From the IMG/VR virus record IMGVR_UViG_3300031999_000011: DNA of 13,908 nt; one strand, written 5' to 3'. The notes under the pieces are model-generated. The model had not been told where the DNA came from. It ran no database searches and saw only the letters and a list, made by a program, of their open reading frames with translations. Origin of the DNA: a virus (lineage: Duplodnaviria > Heunggongvirae > Uroviricota > Caudoviricetes). A program made the position numbers and the translations under genes. Below are positions 2,447 through 13,533 of the stretch, in pieces (the first letter of the stretch is position 1; each line of letters starts with the position of its first letter).

Positions 2447-2899
2447 ATGAAAAAACTATTAGTTTTATTACTTTTATCCAATATCGTATTAGCATCAGAA
2501 GTACATCTATTACAAACACGTTTTGATGCTACCTTTCAAGTACCTGTCCGCATAAATGATAAAGTAACAATAAATTTTACTGTAGATAGCGGGGCTATTG
2601 TTGTTCAAATACCCGTTAATTTTGTTGATTTATTAGTTAAGAATAATGTAATTAAATTATCAGATATTTTATTCGATCATAAGTATATACAAGCAAATGG
2701 AACTGAAATAACTAATAAAAATATTGTTTTTAAGCAATTACAAGTAGGTGACCGTATTGCGTATAATGTAGCTGGTACTATAGGCGCACCTAATAGTCTG
2801 TTACTGTTAGGACAAAGTTTTTTCCAGAATTTTACTGAATGGGGCATTAATAATGTAACTCATACTTTAATTTTAGGGGAACCAATTATTAATCATTAA
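2447..2899 (+). CDS. secreted retropepsin-like (clan AA) aspartyl protease
   Basis: GAGGT RBS, ATG 2447, signal peptide, catalytic FTVDSGA motif, flap QANG and C-terminal LLLGQSF motif. Confidence 0.88.
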   Translation: MKKLLVLLLLSNIVLASEVHLLQTRFDATFQVPVRINDKVTINFTVDSGAIVVQIPVNFVDLLVKNNVIKLSDILFDHKYIQANGTEITNKNIVFKQLQVGDRIAYNVAGTIGAPNSLLLLGQSFFQNFTEWGINNVTHTLILGEPIINH

Positions 2900-2908
2900 T
2901 ATAATAAG

Positions 2909-2937
2909 TTGCATTATATACAATAATGTTGTATAAT
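2909..2937 (+). promoter_or_regulatory. sigma70-type promoter
   Basis: TTGCAT-N17-TATAAT. Confidence 0.85.
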
Positions 2938-2970
2938 ATACATAATATAATTTATAAGAGAGTATATAAA

Positions 2971-3330
2971 ATGATAAATGTTATGTTACCAATTTCAGAA
3001 TTCAATCCTATAACCATGACAGGTCGTATGTTAATTTTTTGCCCTGCATATCCAGAAGGGCATGAAATGCGAATGCGAATTGTTGATGCAAGTTTTGTAA
3101 AATTTACAGATGGAGTCACACATTTTGTTCCATTAGTTGAGTTGGAACTACAACCTGAAGAAACAATATATCAAAGAAACGGATATGCAGATAGAGATGA
3201 GTATTTGACATATTTAAGTGAAGAATTTGATATTGATCTAGATATTGTTGAAACAATGGCTGATATATTGGGTCCAAATGAAGATTTCGACGGATTATAT
3301 ACAGCACTAGAAGATGGTGAAGGACGTTAA
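2971..3330 (+). CDS. hypothetical phage protein with acidic C-terminal domain
   Basis: Likely start 2971; C-terminal NGYADRDEYL..GPNEDFDGLYTALED resembles a recurrent small phage domain of unknown function. Confidence 0.75.
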   Translation: MINVMLPISEFNPITMTGRMLIFCPAYPEGHEMRMRIVDASFVKFTDGVTHFVPLVELELQPEETIYQRNGYADRDEYLTYLSEEFDIDLDIVETMADILGPNEDFDGLYTALEDGEGR

Positions 3331-5693: not shown

Positions 5694-5698
5694 ATTTT

Positions 5699-5766
5699 GT
5701 GGTGATAGCTCAATGGGGGAGTTTTCTATGCGTAGAAGGTCGTCGGTTCGATTCCGATTCACTACA
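5699..5766 (+). pseudogene. tRNA-like gene with the anticodon loop shrunk to 4 nt, no encoded CCA
   Basis: GTGGTGA/TCACTAC, D stem GCTC/GAGT, TTCTA-TGCG-TAGAA, T arm GTCGG-TTCGATT-CCGAT. Confidence 0.65.
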
Positions 5767-5777
5767 AATTAATTTAT

Positions 5778-5856: not shown

Positions 5857-5938
5857 AATGTTAACCTCAGTATAGTTAGTTGAGGTTAAATATTCACACA
5901 TGCTGGGCAACCCCCAGAATTGATAGTGGAGCCAGTAC

Positions 5939-6136
5939 GGTGAATTGCTGGTAGCAATTGTTTGATACTATGAAAGCAACGTTAGATGAACTGAAGTTCC
6001 TATAAAAACTGCGCGGATCAATATCGGGCGCTCCCGACGGGTTTGGACTATATCTAATGATGTGATAACTATAGCATGAGGATCCCTGGTGGTCTTCAGA
6101 ATGCGGTTTCGTAGTTGGAAAGCAAACAATTTCACC
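5939..6136 (+). ncRNA. about 200-nt multi-stem ncRNA candidate
   Basis: Pairings GGTGAA/TTCACC, AATTGTTTG/CAAACAATT, ACTATG/CGTAGT, AAACTGCG/TGCGGTTT plus three local hairpins; GC-richer than flanks; no ORF. Confidence 0.6.
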
Positions 6137-6252
6137 ATAAATTTATGAATATAGTTGATCTATTTATTGATTTACTATATTATATTGAATAAGTGATGTT
6201 TGTTGTCGAAATGGATTTTGACATGATAGGGATTGTCAAATTAAATGGATAT

Positions 6253-6329
6253 GAAACGTGTTGCGTAGAGAATAAGTTACTTAAACTTGAAATTAAAATA
6301 AACTCATTTTCAATTTTATCTCATGTTTC
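6253..6329 (+). ncRNA. UUGCGUA/UACUU scaffold element, copy 1
   Basis: P1 GAAACGTG/CATGTTTC; TTGCGTA; P2 GAGAATAAG/CTCATTTTC; TTACTT; cargo contains CT-TGA-AA; 10-nt linker AATTTTATCT. Confidence 0.8.
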
Positions 6330-6380
6330 TTTTTATAAATTCCGATCTATTGTTTGTAAACGATAGATTATACATGTTTT

Positions 6381-6475
6381 GAAAACCTTGTTGCGTAGAT
6401 ATCGAGCTACTTATAACTGCTAATTGGATGACCTTCGGGTCAGTATTCTCGTGTCGTTCTTATCTCAAGGTTTTC
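6381..6475 (+). ncRNA. UUGCGUA/UACUU scaffold element, copy 2
   Basis: P1 GAAAACCTTG/CAAGGTTTTC; P2 GATATCGAG/CTCGTGTC; CTACTT; cargo CT-GCT-AA plus UUCG hairpin; linker GTTCTTATCT. Confidence 0.85.
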
Positions 6476-6493
6476 ATTTTAATTTTTAAGATT

Positions 6494-6934
6494 ATGTTAA
6501 TTAAACAAATAAAAGCTGATATTACATTAGCAAGAAAAGAACACGACAAGTTTAAAGTAGCCCTATTAACTACCTTACTTTCAGATATTCAAATGATTGG
6601 TAAGAACGCGTTACGTGAATCTACTGATTCTGAAGCAACAGGAATTGTTAAAAGATTCATTAAAGGAATTGACGATACTATTGCGTTGTTGAATATTTCA
6701 ACCGAACTTGAAGTAATATCTAATAAATTAAGTCAAGAAAAAGAAATTTTGAGTAAATATTTACCAACTCAATTAGATAATGAAGAGTTATATATTGTAA
6801 TAAATAATGCTATTAATAGTGGCGTTTGTAATACATTGCCATTAATAATGAAATTTTTAAAAGATATGTATCCCGGTCAGTATGACGGTGCAATGGCAAG
6901 TAAAATTGCAAAAGAATTGTTGTTAGTAGCATGA
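6494..6934 (+). CDS. yqeY: GatB/YqeY domain protein
   Basis: Start 6494 (the upstream ATG lies inside RNA copy 2); patterns IKADITLARKEHDK, EKEILSKYLPTQLDNEEL and GQYDGAMASKIAK are typical of YqeY. Confidence 0.88.
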   Translation: MLIKQIKADITLARKEHDKFKVALLTTLLSDIQMIGKNALRESTDSEATGIVKRFIKGIDDTIALLNISTELEVISNKLSQEKEILSKYLPTQLDNEELYIVINNAINSGVCNTLPLIMKFLKDMYPGQYDGAMASKIAKELLLVA

Positions 6935-7053
6935 TTAGTTACACTGAACCAGAAAAAGTTGCAGCATTAAAAGCAAAATACTCATTGGTGTGGGCAGAGT
7001 TTTATGTTAAAGGTGTTACCGCTGCAAAGGTGTTAAAAGATTTGTTTATATGA
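6931..7053 (+). CDS. small hypothetical protein (40 aa)
   Basis: ATGA overlaps with both neighbours; MISYTEPEKVAALKAKYSLVW... Confidence 0.65.
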   Translation: MISYTEPEKVAALKAKYSLVWAEFYVKGVTAAKVLKDLFI

Positions 7054-7268
7054 GTGATATTACAGCGGATTTGTTAGCCACACCAAGATTATTAGTTACT
7101 CGAAATGATGGGTCAAGTAAACCTACTTATTTTGAGATAATGTTAAAAGAAGTTGCACCAAGTGGTTTGTACATGAGGTATCAAACAGTAGGTGCAAGCA
7201 ACAGCCTATGGACTGAAATCGATACATATAAATTGATTGAAGTGTTATGGGAGAATCAGTTGCAATAA
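7050..7268 (+). CDS. hypothetical protein
   Basis: 72-aa ORF, translationally coupled to the upstream ORF. Confidence 0.75.
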   Translation: MSDITADLLATPRLLVTRNDGSSKPTYFEIMLKEVAPSGLYMRYQTVGASNSLWTEIDTYKLIEVLWENQLQ

Positions 7269-7288
7269 ATAAGCAAAGAAATTATAAT
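7260..7288 (+). promoter_or_regulatory. sigma70-type promoter directly before RNA copy 3
   Basis: TTGCAA-N17-TATAAT; copy 3 starts at 7302. Confidence 0.8.
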
Positions 7289-7301
7289 ATATTATAATTT
7301 A

Positions 7302-7460
7302 TTGATAGTTACGTTGCGTAGAGAACAGATACTTCATACCGAAAGCAGATTGTCAGGGGTTCGATTCCCTTCTACCTTCCCTTACAAGAAGGTAGTAGCT
7401 CAGTTGGTAGAGCATCCGCCATAAAAAAGACTGTTTTCGTTTTTAACTCGTAGCTATCAA
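7302..7460 (+). ncRNA. UUGCGUA/UACUU scaffold element, copy 3, carrying a circularly permuted tRNA body
   Basis: P1 TTGATAGTTACG/CGTAGCTATCAA; P2 GAGAACAG/CTGTTTTC; ATACTT; tRNA 3' half (7345-7379) precedes 5' half (7389-7419); linker GTTTTTAACT. Confidence 0.85.
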
Positions 7461-7485
7461 CAAATTATAAAATAAAAAATAAAAG

Positions 7486-7514
7486 TTGCAAAGTTTTAAA
7501 AAAGCATTTATAAT
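7486..7514 (+). promoter_or_regulatory. sigma70-type promoter upstream of RNA copies 4-6
   Basis: TTGCAA-N17-TATAAT with an A-tract upstream; no ORF follows for about 1 kb. Confidence 0.85.
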
Positions 7515-7634
7515 ATGTTTAAGTTTAAAGAATTCAAGACTACTACTCCTTGAATCGGTTAGTTATATGATGTTGGGTTATATAACTAACCACCTCTTGA
7601 TACACTATTTTACATAGTAGGTAAGGGTTGATAT

Positions 7635-7733
7635 ATTAAATTGTTAACATTTCTGTTGCGTTTGTGTCTGTTACTTCTATTGGCTGAAACAACACAGATA
7701 CAGTTTTTAACTCAGAAGTGTTAACAATTTAAT
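7635..7733 (+). ncRNA. scaffold element, copy 4 (core variant UUGCGUU)
   Basis: 21-bp P1; P2 TGTGTCTG/CAGATACA; TTACTT; cargo CT-GAA-AC; linker GTTTTTAACT. Confidence 0.85.
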
Positions 7734-7757
7734 TTATTATAAATAAAAAGAATAAAT

Positions 7758-7865
7758 TAAGTTATATTGTTGATATCTCTGTTGCGTAGAGTGCCCGTTA
7801 CTTCAATGCTATGAAAAATATACGGTAGCTCGATTTTTCCTCAGAGATATCAATAATATAACTTA
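7758..7865 (+). ncRNA. scaffold element, copy 5
   Basis: 24-bp P1; P2 GAGTGCCCG/CGGTAGCTC; TTACTT; cargo CT-ATG-AA; linker GATTTTTCCT. Confidence 0.85.
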
Positions 7866-7978
7866 TATTAATAATACATATGTTGCGTAGAGATCCGTTA
7901 CTTCAAAACATCTGACTTAAAATCTGACACTAATAGTCGGTTTTCATTTTTTTCTCATATGTATTATTAATATAAGTT
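7860..7978 (+). ncRNA. scaffold element, copy 6
   Basis: 23-bp P1; P2 GAGATCCG/CGGTTTTC; TTACTT; cargo TCTGA-CT-TAA-AA-TCTGA; linker ATTTTTTTCT. Confidence 0.85.
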
Positions 7979-7989
7979 TTGAAAGATTT

Positions 7990-8284
7990 TAGTCATCCCC
8001 TTGGCTGATCCGACCTAGTATATGTTTTATGCATTACGTTTGCTAGGTCACCCTATTTAACGAACATAGATACTCTTTATCGGGTATTATGTAACCGGAG
8101 AAACACTATTAGTTTCTCTCGATCTGCTGTATGATAAATCTCCCTTTAGCATACGGCAGATCAATTTAACACTTACTCCATATCTGTATCCGCTTATGGC
8201 GTTGTGTAACGGAAAGGCTATAACAGCTTTCCAGATCTGCTGTATAGTCATGTTTTATTCATTTTTGGATTATACAGCAGGTCA
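7990..8284 (+). repeat. three tandem double-hairpin units (about 110-nt period)
   Basis: Main stems GACCTAGTA/TGCTAGGTC (8012-8049), GATCTGCTGTATG/CATACGGCAGATC (8121-8162), GATCTGCTGTATA/TATACAGCAGGTC (8234-8283), each preceded by a short hairpin. Confidence 0.7.
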
Positions 8285-8321
8285 CTTTTATGATATAATC
8301 CTTAGTCAAAGTGATATTATT

Positions 8322-11151: not shown

Positions 11152-11508
11152 ATGCAATTAACGAATAAAGAAATTGTTAAGCGATTAGCAGATTTAAAGC
11201 GAGTTAAAGCAGACTTTGATGTATTTGTGATACAAGTACAAATTGATTGTCTTCATGATCATATTGCAGAATGGGATACAGCAGCTTCAGCTCCATTACG
11301 TGTTTGTTTACATTGTGGACTAACAGAAGAAGGTTGGGGATGTGGGTTTATTGTTTTAAAGAATAAAACAGAATTAGGTGTACCTACAATTGATCAAAAA
11401 AGATATTACGAATTAAGACAAGGTGCTTATATCCGCGATGATGATAAAGGGCCATTGTTAAGAAAAGAAATAACCTTGGAAGCTTTAATAAGCAAAAAAG
11501 GTCAGTAA
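11152..11508 (+). CDS. hypothetical protein with a Cys/His cluster
   Basis: Start 11152 (the upstream GTG lies in the tRNA-like gene); CLHDH..CLHCG..C, possibly metal-binding. Confidence 0.75.
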   Translation: MQLTNKEIVKRLADLKRVKADFDVFVIQVQIDCLHDHIAEWDTAASAPLRVCLHCGLTEEGWGCGFIVLKNKTELGVPTIDQKRYYELRQGAYIRDDDKGPLLRKEITLEALISKKGQ

Positions 11509-11517
11509 AAGTTTATT

Positions 11518-11642
11518 ACCGGAGTGATGGGGAATCGGTATACCCTGGCGACGAATTCATAGTGAGGGAGCAGTCATTGGACTTTCAAAGTAACCTCTTT
11601 CGTAAATTGCTGCTTGTGTGGGTTCGAGGCCCGTCTTTGGTA
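11518..11642 (+). tRNA. tRNA-like gene with about 48 extra nt in the anticodon loop (identity unresolved)
   Basis: ACCGGAG/CTTTGGT+A, D arm GGG-GAATCGGTATA-CCC, anticodon stem GGCGA/TTGCT enclosing 55 nt, T arm GTGGG-TTCGAGG-CCCGT; no encoded CCA. Confidence 0.6.
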
Positions 11643-11662
11643 CTCTAAATTAAAGAATACAT

Positions 11663-12058
11663 ATGAGATTAATAGAATTAGTTTTAAATCCTGATCCTCC
11701 ATTAGAGGAGATGGCAAATTTATTTAAAACAGAAACTGGTTTAGATTATCCATTATGGGTTGGTAAGGTTGGGGGACAGCACGGACCTCGAGTTAAGGTA
11801 TCGAATATTCGTGGAAAAATGTCTATGAATAATAATTTTGTCGTGAGTGTTGATCCTAATCCAGAAGTTATTACACCACAAACATGTAACATCGACCAAA
11901 ATGATGTTGACAAAGTAAAAAAATGGATAAGTATTAACTACGATGATTTAATGACTTTATGGTGGATGTTTGAACATGGTGCTATTGAGGTAAAGGATGT
12001 TGATACTGGAAAAATAATAAAGTATGATGATATACTTTATGGTTTTAAAAAAGTTTAA
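11663..12058 (+). CDS. hypothetical phage protein (weak DUF4160-like)
   Basis: MRLIEL..PLEE leader, then MANL..TGL..W...QHGPRVKVS; family call tentative. Confidence 0.7.
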   Translation: MRLIELVLNPDPPLEEMANLFKTETGLDYPLWVGKVGGQHGPRVKVSNIRGKMSMNNNFVVSVDPNPEVITPQTCNIDQNDVDKVKKWISINYDDLMTLWWMFEHGAIEVKDVDTGKIIKYDDILYGFKKV

Positions 12059-12066
12059 AGAATAAT

Positions 12067-12185
12067 GGGGATGTGGTGAAATTTGGTATATGCAGCGGAC
12101 TTTTTCAAGGGCTTGTAGTAATACGAGTCTTTCTAAAAATCCGCCGGCTTCGGTCATGCCGGTTCGAGTCCGGCCTTCCCTACCA
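12067..12185 (+). tRNA. tRNA-Leu(TAA)-like gene with a 33-nt insert at anticodon position 34/35
   Basis: GGGGATG/CTTCCCT+A+CCA, Leu-type D loop, GCGGA/TCCGC stem, UUCG variable arm, canonical T arm; removing 12103-12135 gives CT-TAA-AA. Confidence 0.8.
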
Positions 12186-12199
12186 ATTTAAGGATGTAA

Positions 12200-12466
12200 A
12201 TGAAACTAGAAGAATTAAAAGATTGTTTGTTATCTATTCCTGATGCTGATTTGGATAATTTCGCTAAAGATTTTATTCGAAAGTGGAATATAACTCCAAC
12301 AGCAATTCAACTTTTAGAAGTGTTGGATAATATAGTTCGATATAGTTTATCATGCGATTTGGTGGTACAGTTTTTAGATATGCAATTAAAAACTGTAATG
12401 CTAAACGAAAACATTACTATGGAAGAACTTGAAGTACATGCTATTTGGAGAAACCAAATGAACTAA
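12200..12466 (+). CDS. hypothetical protein
   Basis: AAGGA RBS; 88 aa between tRNA genes. Confidence 0.8.
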   Translation: MKLEELKDCLLSIPDADLDNFAKDFIRKWNITPTAIQLLEVLDNIVRYSLSCDLVVQFLDMQLKTVMLNENITMEELEVHAIWRNQMN

Positions 12467-12467
12467 T

Positions 12468-12554
12468 GCACTTGTGATGGAACGGTTTACATAGCGGGCT
12501 CAAAACCCGTCCCCCTTGTTAGGGTTGTCAGTTCGAATCTGACCAGGTGTACCA
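12468..12554 (+). tRNA. trnL: tRNA-Leu(CAA)
   Basis: GCACTTG/CAGGTGT+A+CCA; GCGGG-CT-CAA-AA-CCCGT; long variable arm. Confidence 0.93.
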
Positions 12555-12561
12555 AAGTATT

Positions 12562-12646
12562 GCCTTTGTGATGGAATGCATACATGCTTGGCTAAGAACC
12601 AAGTGCCTTTAGTGGATTGTGGGTTCGAGTCCCATCAAAGGTACCA
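12562..12646 (+). tRNA. trnL: tRNA-Leu(AAG)
   Basis: GCCTTTG/CAAAGGT+A+CCA; CTTGG-CT-AAG-AA-CCAAG; long variable arm; canonical T loop. Confidence 0.9.
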
Positions 12647-12652
12647 AATTTG

Positions 12653-12682
12653 TTGCAATTTAAGCGATAAATACAATATAGT
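12653..12682 (+). promoter_or_regulatory. probable promoter of the lipoprotein gene
   Basis: TTGCAA-N18-TATAGT. Confidence 0.4.
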
Positions 12683-12719
12683 TAAATTACTAGCTATAAA
12701 TTAATATAAAGGGAATAAT

Positions 12720-12998
12720 ATGAAAAAAGTAATAAAATTATCGATAATCGCAATAGTTGCCAGTTTAGTTGTAGGTTGTGCAACTAGTTCAGATATTGAA
12801 AATTTGCAAGTACAAATTGATGGATTGAAGGTTTCTGTAGCTCAAGCATCATCTGATGCACAAAGTGCACAAAGTGCTGCAGTAGATGCATCTGCAAAAG
12901 CATCAGCAGCGGAAGTTGCTGCTAACCAAGCAGCTCAATTATCTCAAGATGCTAATAGCAAATTGGATAATATGTTTCAAAAATCGATGGCAAAATAA
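12720..12998 (+). CDS. Lpp/OprI-family alanine-zipper outer-membrane lipoprotein
   Basis: Lipobox VVG-C, Ala-rich coiled coil, C-terminus ANSKLDNMFQKSMAK with terminal Lys. Confidence 0.85.
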   Translation: MKKVIKLSIIAIVASLVVGCATSSDIENLQVQIDGLKVSVAQASSDAQSAQSAAVDASAKASAAEVAANQAAQLSQDANSKLDNMFQKSMAK

Positions 12999-13010
12999 AG
13001 TATATGGTTT

Positions 13011-13044
13011 TGTTGTTAAGAGTAGTTAAATCTTCTTAACAACA
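13011..13044 (+). terminator. hairpin after the lipoprotein gene
   Basis: TGTTGTTAAGA/TCTTAACAACA, 11-bp stem. Confidence 0.45.
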
Positions 13045-13077
13045 TACCCTCAATTAACAATGAGATATATAAATGCC

Positions 13078-13166
13078 TGGAAATGAAGGGAATAGAAAAT
13101 CGGAAAATAAAAAGTGAGTGCTCAATTCCAGAAGGTTGGCGGTACGGGAGAGTTTCCAAACATTAA
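13078..13166 (+). pseudogene. relic of a homing-endonuclease C-terminal repeat
   Basis: Encodes GIENRKIKSECSIPEGWRYGR, matching the repeats in 10130-10885; the leading Trp codon is out of frame. Confidence 0.55.
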
Positions 13167-13218
13167 ATATAAATCATAATATTAAGCTGTTGTGTTTTTT
13201 AGGAGCTAATTTTATTTT

Positions 13219-13533
13219 ATGCTTACAAAATTTGAACCCGAATCAGAATATTTGCGAGAAATTGTCCGAGCATTAATTAGTCATAATTGGTGGCCTAAAA
13301 AAAGAATAACGCAATGGACAGCAGATGATATAACAATTGTCAAGTTATTATTAAGAATTGAAGGCTGTACTGATGATGGCGCAGAAATTTTTGAGCAGTG
13401 GATTAAAAATGATACAGTAAAAGACATTGATGCTGGTTATTATGATATACCAAGGATCCCACATGATACTAAACATGATGAGTTAATTAATATGTTAACC
13501 GATATGCTTAACAAAGGTGAAAAAGTTTTATGA
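13219..13533 (+). CDS. hypothetical protein
   Basis: AGGAG upstream; 104 aa. Confidence 0.8.
   Translation: MLTKFEPESEYLREIVRALISHNWWPKKRITQWTADDITIVKLLLRIEGCTDDGAEIFEQWIKNDTVKDIDAGYYDIPRIPHDTKHDELINMLTDMLNKGEKVL

What the first reader, a model, noticed from the sequence alone, without database searches (positions are those of the whole stretch)
6283..7937. Scaffold cargos are tRNA anticodon fragments with different specificities
Seen: 3-12 nt after TACTT each cargo has an anticodon-loop-like heptamer: CT-TGA-AA (Ser, 6286), CT-GCT-AA (Ser, 6417, followed by 5 nt and a TGACC-TTCG-GGTCA hairpin like a Ser variable arm), CC-GAA-AG (7339, degenerate), CT-GAA-AC (Phe, 7684), CT-ATG-AA (His-type A34, 7809), CT-TAA-AA (Leu, 7916, inside a 4/5-bp TCTGA/TCTGA stem). 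They are sense, not antisense, to tRNA. Established: host anticodon nucleases (PrrC, RloC, PARIS AriB, VapC) cut tRNA anticodon loops during phage defence. Inference: a library of anticodon decoys, or donors for tRNA repair. AT-richness makes single heptamers weak evidence; the recurrence plus the copy 2, 3 and 6 context carries the claim.
Basis: partly seen in the sequence, partly recalled or inferred. Interest (0 to 1): 0.88.

Follow-up and report, generated by a model that had tools for sequence, protein, structure and literature searches.

The report
Phage Y RNAs displaying anticodon-like hairpins
The six repeated RNAs are phage versions of Y RNAs, the partner RNAs of the Ro60 protein; the anticodon-like loops seen in some of them are a real feature of the whole family, but nothing yet shows that they act as decoys for tRNA-cutting enzymes.

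Summary
All six heptamers are at the stated coordinates. In the window alone they are barely above chance. Only three (copies 1, 2, 6) sit in a hairpin loop; copy 3's lies in a linker, and those of copies 4 and 5 overlap a stem.

The "scaffold" is the handle of Y RNA-like RNAs, the partners of Ro60/TROVE proteins. Copy 3 matches Rfam YrlA below threshold. A model seeded from the window copies finds relatives just upstream of phage Ro60 genes: 138 hits in 61 loci, all on the gene's strand. A model trained only on those RNAs finds all six window copies (E 1e-10 to 1e-6).

Across the family, the element after UACUU(C) is often a 4-5 bp hairpin with a 7-nt loop: 48 of 127 members, against about 9 in shuffles. 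The loop profile is C-U-N-N-N-A-A, close to real anticodon loops from the same loci, with 29 different middle triplets.

So anticodon-arm mimicry is supported for the family. The decoy or repair-donor function is untested. No Ro60 gene was found in about 75 kb around the window. This scan has already met phage Ro60-handle RNAs on other DNA. Verdict: a new variant of a known kind, of moderate interest.

The parts
6250..6332 (+). Yrl copy 1 (short form): outer stem, GUUGCGUAGAG internal loop, inner stem, UUACUU, apical module, 3' strand UUUUCAAUUUUAUCUC
   Evidence: Models R1/R2/R3 (R3 E 2.6e-7). A variant strain (L062:18631-18711) has compensatory changes in both stems.
6281..6297 (+).
   Evidence: In the L062 variant a 1-nt deletion gives a perfect UUAA-CUUGAAA-UUAA. 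The same loop, CUUGAAA, recurs in other phages.
6380..6476 (+). Yrl copy 2 (short form with two apical hairpins)
   Evidence: R3 E 2.9e-7. The variant L062:18759-18854 has compensatory changes in the outer and inner stems.
6414..6442 (+). Copy 2: UAA-CUGCUAA-UUG hairpin (loop 6417-6423), then the UGACC-UUCG-GGUCA hairpin (6429-6442)
   Evidence: The variant has CAA-CUGUUAA-UUG: the stem is strengthened and the middle triplet changes from GCU to GUU.
7303..7459 (+). Yrl copy 3 (long, YrlA-type): handle plus a circularly permuted tRNA-like domain
   Evidence: Rfam RF02553 YrlA 37.5 bits, E 5e-6, below the gathering score of 69. R3 E 1.3e-10.
7349..7416 (+). tRNA-like domain of copy 3: T arm 7355-7371, closed acceptor hairpin 7372-7395, UA, D arm 7398-7413, closed by GAU/AUC
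Evidence: Alignment to the YrlA model, fold.
7645..7723 (+). Yrl copy 4 (short; degenerate 5' motif GUUGCGUUUG)
Evidence: R3 E 9.8e-7, fold.
7771..7852 (+). Yrl copy 5 (short)
   Evidence: R3 E 2e-10. Hairpin UUCA-AUGCUA-UGAA at 7802-7815. Relatives carry UUCA-AUGCUAA-UGAA.
7872..7966 (+). Yrl copy 6 (short)
   Evidence: R3 E 3.9e-10. Hairpin UCUGA-CUUAAAA-UCUGA at 7911-7927 with a U.U mismatch.

Best explanation
The six repeats are genes for Y RNA-like small RNAs (Yrl; YrlA/YrlB type), the RNA partners of Ro60/TROVE ring proteins.

The constant scaffold is the protein handle. It has a terminal stem made from the two ends of the RNA. It has an asymmetric internal loop carrying GUUGCGUAGAG, a variant of the published GNCGAAN0-1G Ro60 motif, opposite a U-rich strand that ends in CUC. 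A co-varying inner stem follows, and then UUACUU, the published conserved YUAY.

The cargo is the effector module. In copy 3 it is a circularly permuted tRNA-like domain (T arm, closed acceptor, D arm). In the short copies it is one or two small hairpins. Family-wide, the first of these is a 4-5 bp stem that starts in the UUC of UACUUC and closes a 7-nt loop with the profile C-U-N-N-N-A-A. That is an anticodon-arm look-alike with a free middle triplet. In the long members it is followed by AGGUC and the T arm, as in a tRNA. The heptamers of copies 1, 2 and 6 are loops of this element. Those of copies 3, 4 and 5 as drawn are not.

Shown here: the RNA structure by covariation, family membership, the linkage of the family to Ro60 genes, and the loop statistics.

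Inferred from the characterised systems (D. radiodurans, S. Typhimurium, Thermus phage phiLo): the handle binds a Ro60 ring, encoded elsewhere in this phage or by the host. The module tethers or gates that ring towards a second factor such as PNPase or a tRNA-binding protein. This would serve RNA or tRNA surveillance, or counter-defence, during infection.
For: Structure:
- Long outer stems, with 7 of 10 pairs showing compensatory changes among the copies.
- The window and strain L062 differ by compensatory changes in the outer and inner stems while the motifs stay fixed.
- Family-wide, the inner stem forms a helix of 6 bp or more in 81% of members against 34% in shuffles, with 114 distinct strands among 140.

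Family membership:
- Copy 3 matches Rfam YrlA at E 5e-6.
- The motifs correspond to GNCGAAN0-1G and YUAY of Chen 2014 (PMC4201824; 10.1101/312249). Relatives read GGCGUAG, and one reads GGCGAAG.

Link to Ro60:
- Model R1, built from the six window copies and two copies from strain L062 of the same phage, gave 59 hits in 79 phage TROVE loci, 57 of them on the gene's strand.
- R2 gave 138 hits in 61 loci, all on the gene's strand. 108 of them end within 1 kb upstream of the TROVE match.
- In the 359-kb phage record G001, a copy lies about 225 nt upstream of a split TROVE gene.
- Exact window-type motifs lie upstream of TROVE in metagenome contigs L198 and L240.
- Caulobacter phage CcrColossus has an array directly upstream of gp139.
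- gp139 is a true Ro60: PF05731 64.7 bits, the Ro60 vWA domain, and PDB 9KOP/9L5Y at E 2e-20.

Reverse test: R3, trained only on TROVE-adjacent RNAs, finds all six window copies (E 1e-10 to 1e-6) and nothing else in the window or about 60 kb of flanks.

Hairpin:
- A 7-nt-loop hairpin with a stem of 4 bp or more occurs in 71 of 145 members against 25.4 +/- 4.4 in shuffles. Loop sizes other than 7 and 9 sit at background.
- On the strict set, 48 of 127 members have it. The loop profile is C69 U77 N N N A69 A83 %, against C70 U92 N N N A76 A76 % for 211 real tRNA anticodon loops from the same loci.
- It holds for short members (32 of 93 against 5.3 in shuffles) and long members (16 of 34 against 4.1).
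- ARAGORN calls six long members tRNAs, using this hairpin as the anticodon arm.
Against: - No Ro60/TROVE gene was found in about 75 kb around the window, neither in the Pfam lists nor by an HMM search of the held DNA. The defining neighbourhood is therefore not met here, and the partner is unknown.
- The Rfam YrlA score (37.5 bits) is far below the gathering score of 69.
- The window's 5' motif differs from GNCGAAN0-1G at two positions.
- The window's own hairpins are weak (3 bp, or interrupted by a mismatch). None passes the strict definition used for the family.
- Only about 38% of family members have the strict hairpin.
Confidence: 0.8

Rival explanations
1. One reading: the cargos are a library of anticodon stem-loop decoys that soak up host anticodon nucleases (PrrC, RloC, PARIS AriB, VapC, colicin-like toxins), or donors for tRNA repair. 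This could coexist with Ro60 binding, with the Ro60 handle only stabilising or delivering the decoy.
For: - The loop profile equals that of anticodon loops, with 29 different triplets in 48 hairpins.
- Arrays hold different triplets.
- Some loops equal known nuclease targets in sequence, for example CUUUUAA, the tRNA-Lys(UUU) loop (my knowledge), in L157 and L168.
- The window's phage neighbourhood is rich in tRNA-maintenance and counter-defence genes. These include tRNAs, PTH2, YqeY, a CCA-adding enzyme, an RNA ligase, an Acb2/Tad1-like protein, SIR2 and NADAR.
Against: - No nuclease, cleavage or protection data exist.
- Stems are only 3-5 bp. There is no D or T context in the short forms, and many anticodon nucleases need more of the tRNA or its modifications (my knowledge).
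- About 60% of family members lack the hairpin.
- In the window, three of the six proposed heptamers are not loops.
- The triplet drifts between near-identical strains (GCU to GUU), which does not look like a tuned specificity.
Confidence: 0.12
2. The anticodon-like hairpin is an evolutionary left-over. On this view Y RNA-like genes arise from (dimeric) tRNA genes, and the hairpin is the retained anticodon arm of the first tRNA. It is kept only as a stable structural spacer, and no present function reads the loop.
For: - The published dimeric-tRNA origin model (10.1101/312249).
- In long members the order is hairpin, AGGUC, T arm, as in a tRNA gene.
- ARAGORN and the CcrColossus annotators call such RNAs tRNAs.
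- The genes sit inside tRNA arrays.
Against: - Positions 1, 2, 6 and 7 of the loop and the 7-nt size are kept across very divergent phages, while 35 different stems co-vary.
- The hairpin is the only apical element kept in many short members (32 of 93).
- Both points argue for selection on the loop itself.
Confidence: 0.25
3. The heptamers are chance matches in AT-rich sequence, with no shared element behind them.
For: - The window is 33% G+C.
- In the window, YTNNNRA is not enriched.
- The heptamers of copies 3, 4 and 5 fail the structural test.
Against: - Family-level enrichment of the 7-nt-loop hairpin at a fixed position, about 10 SD above shuffles.
- The position-specific loop profile.
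- Conservation of CUUGAAA in copy 1 between strains whose stems have changed.
Confidence: 0.05
4. The repeats are pieces of split or permuted tRNA genes that are processed and joined into working tRNAs. This is the tRNA-splicing or circularisation reading of the first reader's integrated hypothesis.
For: - Copy 3 holds a permuted tRNA body.
- An RNA ligase and a CCA-adding enzyme are encoded nearby.
- M. smegmatis YrlA is cut by RNase P and gains CCA (PMC4201824).
Against: - Five of the six copies have no T arm, D arm or acceptor.
- The permuted body of copy 3 has no anticodon arm.
- The shared handle is tied to Ro60 genes, not to splicing enzymes.
Confidence: 0.03

Closest known systems
YrlA / YrlB, bacterial and phage Y RNA-like RNAs bound by Rsr (Ro60) (Chen et al. 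2014, PMC4201824; Rfam RF02553; structure in Wang et al. 2018, 10.1101/312249)
   Same: - Terminal stem with a conserved 5'-strand motif of the GNCGAAN0-1G type, followed by YUAY.
- One RNA per locus carries a permuted tRNA-like domain (T arm, closed acceptor, UA, D arm), alongside shorter rod-like companions.
- Several RNAs in tandem, and a family linked to Ro60 genes on the same strand.
   Different: - The window motif is UGCGUAG, and the Rfam score is below threshold.
- There are six copies, with no Ro60 gene within about 75 kb.
- The published S. Typhimurium YrlA 'lacks the anticodon loop', and the stem-loop 5' of the T arm is described only as a less conserved V arm. Here that position holds, family-wide, a 7-nt loop with an anticodon-loop profile, and in short members it is the only apical element.
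Thermus phage phiLo phiRo60 with Yrl1 and Yrl2 (NAR 2025, PMC12135203; PDB 9KOP, 9L5Y)
   Same: - Phage-encoded Ro60 with Y RNA-like genes just upstream.
- A stem, bulge, stem design with a CGAA-type motif.
- The protein family matches at E 2e-20.
   Different: That paper describes two RNAs, and none of the passages returned by my term search mentions tRNA-like or anticodon-like modules; the word 'anticodon' does not occur in it. Binding to PNPase was shown there and is not testable here.
D. radiodurans Yrn1 (Chen et al. 2014)
   Same: It can be drawn with a potential 'anticodon arm' of 5 bp.
   Different: Its loop is 6 nt, its orientation relative to the RNA ends differs, and the authors judged it to have evolved independently.
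Phage Ro60-like (DUF2828) proteins with ACAGCAA-handle RNAs, reported earlier in this scan (e1-5371223, e1-5400452; AI notes)
   Same: One constant handle is attached to whole tRNAs, rearranged tRNAs or bare anticodon hairpins, in arrays inside phage tRNA clusters.
   Different: The handle sequence and the protein subfamily differ. Those notes are unchecked by me.
Phage-encoded tRNAs that replace tRNAs cut by defence nucleases (my knowledge, not tested here)
   Same: A phage tRNA-island context, and an anticodon-centred logic.
   Different: Those are complete, decodable tRNAs. The short Yrl RNAs have no acceptor end and cannot be charged.

Membership tests
Y RNA-like RNAs (YrlA/YrlB) of Ro60/Rsr | A stem formed by the 5' and 3' ends, with an internal loop or bulge | tested here: met
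   Folds. 7 of 10 outer pairs have compensatory changes. Compensatory changes between strains.
Y RNA-like RNAs (YrlA/YrlB) of Ro60/Rsr | The conserved 5'-strand motif GNCGAAN0-1G (CGAA core) | tested here: inconclusive
   The window has UGCGUAG, two differences from the motif. Relatives found with the same model read GGCGUAG, and one reads GGCGAAG. This is a variant, not the published consensus.
Y RNA-like RNAs (YrlA/YrlB) of Ro60/Rsr | Conserved YUAY after the handle helix | tested here: met
   UUAC, AUAC or CUAC in all six copies. TAC[TC]T is present in 148 of 149 family members.
Y RNA-like RNAs (YrlA/YrlB) of Ro60/Rsr | At least one RNA with a tRNA-like domain (T arm, closed acceptor, UA, D arm) | tested here: met
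   Copy 3, 7349-7416.
Y RNA-like RNAs (YrlA/YrlB) of Ro60/Rsr | Rfam RF02553 gathering score (69 bits) | tested here: not met
   37.5 bits for copy 3; no hit for the other five.
Y RNA-like RNAs (YrlA/YrlB) of Ro60/Rsr | Encoded within about 4 kb of a Ro60/TROVE gene, on the same strand | tested here: not met
   No TROVE gene in about 75 kb around the window. The feature is met for the homologues: 138 of 138 hits lie on the TROVE strand, and 108 end within 1 kb upstream. A model trained on those homologues recovers all six window copies.
Y RNA-like RNAs (YrlA/YrlB) of Ro60/Rsr | Physical binding to Ro60 | not testable with these tools
   Needs immunoprecipitation or a gel shift.
tRNA anticodon stem-loop (as a mimic) | A 5-bp stem closing a 7-nt loop | tested here: inconclusive
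   Family: 48 of 127 members have a stem of 4 bp or more with a 7-nt loop. Window: copy 1 has 4 of 5 pairs with an A.A mismatch, copy 2 has 3 bp, copy 6 has 4 of 5 pairs with a U.U mismatch, copy 5 has a 6-nt loop, and copies 3 and 4 have none.
tRNA anticodon stem-loop (as a mimic) | Loop profile: pyrimidine 32, U33, free 34-36, purine 37, A38 | tested here: met
   Family loops are C69 U77 N N N A69 A83 %, against C70 U92 N N N A76 A76 % for 211 tRNA loops from the same loci. Window copies 1, 2 and 6 fit this profile.
Decoys of anticodon nucleases | Bound or cut by an anticodon nuclease, and protecting the phage | not testable with these tools
   No data. No nuclease partner was identified.

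The most novel reading that the evidence does not exclude
Phage Y RNA arrays are sets of anticodon stem-loop displays on a common Ro60 handle. Each RNA would present a different anticodon-like triplet to capture proteins that read anticodons (defence nucleases, modification enzymes, synthetase domains), or to pair with complementary loops. This would either decoy those factors or deliver them, or their tRNA targets, to the Ro60/exonuclease machine. The six-copy array in this window would be one such library.
Probability: 0.15. Interest if true: 0.85.

Novelty: new variant of a known kind. Interest (0 to 1): 0.55.

Why it matters
What the effector modules of bacterial and phage Y RNAs bind is an open question. 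The authors of the YrlA structure expected an unknown tRNA-binding protein.

A hairpin with the exact profile of an anticodon loop, conserved across many phage Ro60 loci and often the only apical element of the short RNAs, narrows the search to factors that read anticodon arms. It also gives a direct mutational handle: loop positions 2, 6 and 7, and the middle triplet.

The result also explains some mis-annotated 'tRNAs' next to phage Ro60 genes, and supports the idea that Y RNAs derive from tRNA genes. Cultured phages such as Caulobacter phage CcrColossus carry the same arrays, so the question can be tested at the bench.

Tried and rejected
- INPHARED blastn with the region found only a tRNA-Glu match.
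- The exact-motif scan of IMG/VR gave 56 single hits, at about the number I estimated from motif length and a guessed collection size. Only L044 was real, with L028 doubtful.
- No own genome is held for this window, and the metagenome records cannot be searched whole.
- I walked the 120-kb contig with nine look-ups to find a Ro60 gene. None was found in about 75 kb, and the walk then stalled.
- The 469-aa ORF upstream (L186:7583-8992) is not TROVE.
- A viral-contig search with the YqeY protein found nothing. YqeY, PTH2 and two other window ORFs have no homologues near TROVE loci, so they are not conserved partners.
- Rfam YrlA did not hit the G001 tRNA-like copy at E 0.1 or better, nor any phage TROVE locus at the gathering score.
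- I compared by eye the CRISPR repeats of the same phage with the scaffold and saw no resemblance.
- I did not add the inner stem or the hairpin to the covariance models, because that needs a long typed structure string. Both were tested with scripts instead.
Full report
OBSERVATION

All six heptamers are at the coordinates given: CTTGAAA 6286, CTGCTAA 6417, CCGAAAG 7339, CTGAAAC 7684, CTATGAA 7809 and CTTAAAA 7916. They start 3-12 nt after TACTT. The TGACC-TTCG-GGTCA hairpin (6429-6442) and the two TCTGA arms (7911-7915 and 7923-7927; 4 of 5 pairs) are also there.

In the window alone the pattern is weak. Of the five cargos left after removing duplicates (copy 3 dropped out as a near-duplicate of its strain variant), strict CTNNNAA occurs in 4, against 1.7 +/- 1.0 in dinucleotide shuffles (37 of 1000 shuffles reach it). 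YTNNNRA is not enriched.

WHAT THE REPEATS ARE

Each copy is a rod. A long outer stem is formed by the flanks. Then comes an asymmetric internal loop with GUUGCGUAGAG on the 5' side and a U-rich strand ending in CUC on the 3' side. A short inner stem follows, then UUACUU, then a variable apical part.
- Among the copies, 7 of 10 outer-stem pairs show compensatory changes.
- A variant strain of the same phage (L062) differs from the window in copies 1 and 2 by compensatory changes in both stems, while the motifs stay fixed.

These are therefore structured RNAs.

Copy 3 matches Rfam YrlA (Y RNA-like A) at 37.5 bits, E 5e-6. This is below the gathering score of 69. The hallmark order is present: T arm, closed acceptor hairpin, UA, D arm. 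The published YrlA signature is a GNCGAAN0-1G motif near the 5' end and a conserved YUAY (PMC4201824; 10.1101/312249). The window has UGCGUAG and UUAC, AUAC or CUAC in the corresponding places.

LINK TO Ro60

Model R1 was built from the six window copies and two copies from strain L062 of the same phage.
- It found three copies in a 359-kb IMG/VR phage record, G001.
- One lies about 225 nt upstream, on the same strand, of a TROVE gene. That gene is split by an inserted DUF7487 ORF.
- The other two lie in the tRNA array. One of them carries a permuted tRNA-like domain.

I then used the TROVE protein family to fetch 80 phage TROVE loci.
- R1 gave 59 hits there, 57 of them on the TROVE strand.
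- The enlarged model R2 gave 138 hits in 61 loci. All are on the TROVE strand, and 108 end within 1 kb upstream of the TROVE match. They usually form tandem arrays of 2-5.

As a reverse test I built model R3 from 94 TROVE-adjacent RNAs only, with no window sequences. It finds all six window copies (E 1.3e-10 to 9.8e-7) and nothing else in the window or in about 60 kb of flanking phage DNA.

Further support:
- The exact window-type motif also lies upstream of TROVE genes in two metagenome contigs, L198 and L240.
- Cultured phages carry the same arrays: Caulobacter phage CcrColossus directly upstream of gp139, Xanthomonas phage MET23-P3 and Brevundimonas phage Marchewka also upstream, and Microcystis phage Mvi-JY20 just downstream of the gene.
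- The proteins are true Ro60 homologues. They score PF05731 64.7 bits, carry the Ro60 vWA domain, and match PDB 9KOP/9L5Y of Thermus phage phiLo Ro60 at E 2e-20.

Phage Ro60 with upstream Y RNA-like genes is published (PMC4201824; PMC12135203; PMC7824862). So the scaffold is the Ro60 handle of a known kind of RNA, in a sequence variant that Rfam does not capture at its threshold.

THE CARGO

I tested the element that follows UACUU in 145 family members.
- Hairpins with a stem of 4 bp or more and a 7-nt loop occur in 71, against 25.4 +/- 4.4 in shuffles.
- Loop sizes 3-6, 8 and 10 are at background. Size 9 is raised, as expected if one pair of the stem is lost.

I then used a strict set: non-redundant, without the window lineage, and with the stem starting inside CUUC.
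- 48 of 127 members have the hairpin.
- Loop composition is C 69%, U 77%, three nearly free positions, A 69%, A 83%.
- For comparison, 211 real tRNA anticodon loops from the same loci give C 70%, U 92%, free, A 76%, A 76%.
- There are 29 different middle triplets and 35 different stems.

The hairpin is found in short members (32 of 93 against 5.3 in shuffles) and in long tRNA-like members (16 of 34 against 4.1). In many long members it is followed by AGGUC and the T arm, the order found in a tRNA. ARAGORN calls six of these RNAs tRNAs, using the hairpin as the anticodon arm. The annotated tRNA-Gln of CcrColossus overlaps one of them.

Strict CTNNNAA occurs in 41 of 131 cargos against 26.2 +/- 4.1, and no shuffle of 1000 reaches it. 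It is concentrated 2-4 nt after TACTT.

THE SIX COPIES, ONE BY ONE
- Copy 1: UUAAA-CUUGAAA-UUAAA with an A.A mismatch. The strain variant has a perfect UUAA-CUUGAAA-UUAA, and the same loop recurs in unrelated phages. Supported.
- Copy 2: UAA-CUGCUAA-UUG plus a second hairpin. The variant has CAA-CUGUUAA-UUG. Supported, but the triplet is not fixed.
- Copy 3: the canonical YrlA type. Its heptamer lies in the linker. Not supported.
- Copy 4: UUC-UAUUGGCU-GAA or UUG-GCUGAAA-CAA. Not supported.
- Copy 5: UUCA-AUGCUA-UGAA, one base short of the AUGCUAA loops of relatives. The element is present but was mis-read.
- Copy 6: UCUGA-CUUAAAA-UCUGA with a U.U mismatch, further from the anchor than usual. 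Plausible.

None of the window hairpins passes the strict family definition.

CONTEXT

The window is part of a large phage, known from metagenome contigs of up to 120 kb. The RNAs lie in a tRNA island with a YqeY-domain gene inside the array and a PTH2 gene nearby.
- Upstream lie an Acb2/Tad1-like gene, an RNA ligase, and a type I-F-like Cas operon with an irregular array.
- Downstream lie SIR2, a CCA-adding enzyme and NADAR.

No TROVE gene appears in about 75 kb, neither in the Pfam lists nor in an HMM search of the held DNA. The partner may lie elsewhere in the genome or be supplied by the host.

MECHANISM

Shown: structure, family membership, linkage of the family to Ro60 genes, and an anticodon-arm-like module.

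Inferred from characterised systems: the handle binds the Ro60 ring, and the module tethers or gates it towards a second factor. That factor is PNPase in Deinococcus, Salmonella and phage phiLo. For the anticodon-like loop, three readings remain: a functional mimic for anticodon-reading proteins (as decoy or tether), a retained anticodon arm of a tRNA ancestor, or both. Conservation of loop size and of positions 1, 2, 6 and 7 across co-varying stems favours some present function. Nothing identifies that function. The decoy and repair-donor ideas have no direct support.

NOVELTY

The RNAs belong to a known kind, and this scan has met phage Ro60-handle RNAs repeatedly on other DNA. Those notes include a different handle family attached to bare anticodon hairpins.

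In the papers I could read, the stem-loop 5' of the T arm is called a less conserved V arm, and the one solved structure, S. Typhimurium YrlA, is said to lack an anticodon loop. I found no description of a family-wide loop with an anticodon-loop profile, or of short Y RNAs that consist of the handle plus such a hairpin.

LIMITS
- There are no expression or binding data.
- The models hold only the outer stem.
- R2 and R3 descend from a window-seeded search, although R3's training sequences are independent of the window.
- E-values from the shortened calibration are rough.

Noticed in passing
L062:1207-6510 (same phage, about 14 kb upstream of the window's YqeY gene): A type I-F-like Cas operon: a 351-aa protein, Csy2 (PF09614), Csy3 (PF09615) and a 153-181-aa protein. 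No Cas1, Cas2 or Cas3 is listed nearby. It is followed by a 1.9-kb very irregular repeat array with repeat about TTATCACCGAGTAGGTGATTTAGAAA, spacing of 46-172 nt, and some repeats with expanded hairpin loops.
   Followed up: partly
window 7980-8300: Three or four hairpins with shared arms (GATCTGCTGTAT ... ATACGGCAGATC) directly after the Yrl array. This is a second repeated RNA-like family. It has no Rfam match and is not hit by the Yrl models.
   Followed up: no
window 5860-6140 and 7521-7613: Two further structured-looking intergenic stretches. One lies between tRNA-Glu and copy 1. The other is a pair of hairpins behind a promoter-like site at 7486-7514. Neither has a significant Rfam match.
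   Followed up: no
window 7260-7288, 7609-7637, 6155-6183: Sigma-70-like hexamer pairs lie 15-70 nt upstream of copies 3, 4 and 1. The overall count in the region is at shuffle level (15 against 14.7), so this is only suggestive of separate transcription units.
   Followed up: partly
L044:1031-3275 (= G001 about 11193-13437): The Ro60/TROVE gene of the 359-kb phage is split. The N part is at 1031-1783 and the C part at 2826-3275 (PF05731 26.9 bits). A 317-aa DUF7487 ORF lies between them. This may be a mobile insertion or an intron-like element.
   Followed up: partly
L187:2122-2296 (JX100810.1 109217-109284): The annotated tRNA-Gln of Caulobacter phage CcrColossus overlaps a Y RNA-like hit: a handle, a hairpin with loop AUCUGGA, AGGUC, and a T arm. 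It is probably a Yrl RNA rather than a decoding tRNA.
   Followed up: partly
L214 (- strand, from position 8): The window-type handle GTTGCGTAGAG...TTACTTC is followed by a whole, un-permuted tRNA-like body: acceptor, D arm, a 5-bp anticodon arm with loop AUUCCAA, T arm, and ACCA.
   Followed up: no
window 6494-6934: A YqeY-domain (GatB-tail-like) ORF sits inside the Yrl array, 18 nt after copy 2. No homologue lies near other phage Ro60 loci, so it is not a conserved partner.
   Followed up: yes
window 12067-12182 and 5698-5767: A tRNA model match stretched over 116 nt (30.3 bits), which suggests an insert in a tRNA-Leu-like gene. Separately, ARAGORN calls a tRNA with a 2-nt 'anticodon'. These are odd tRNA genes in the same island.
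   Followed up: no
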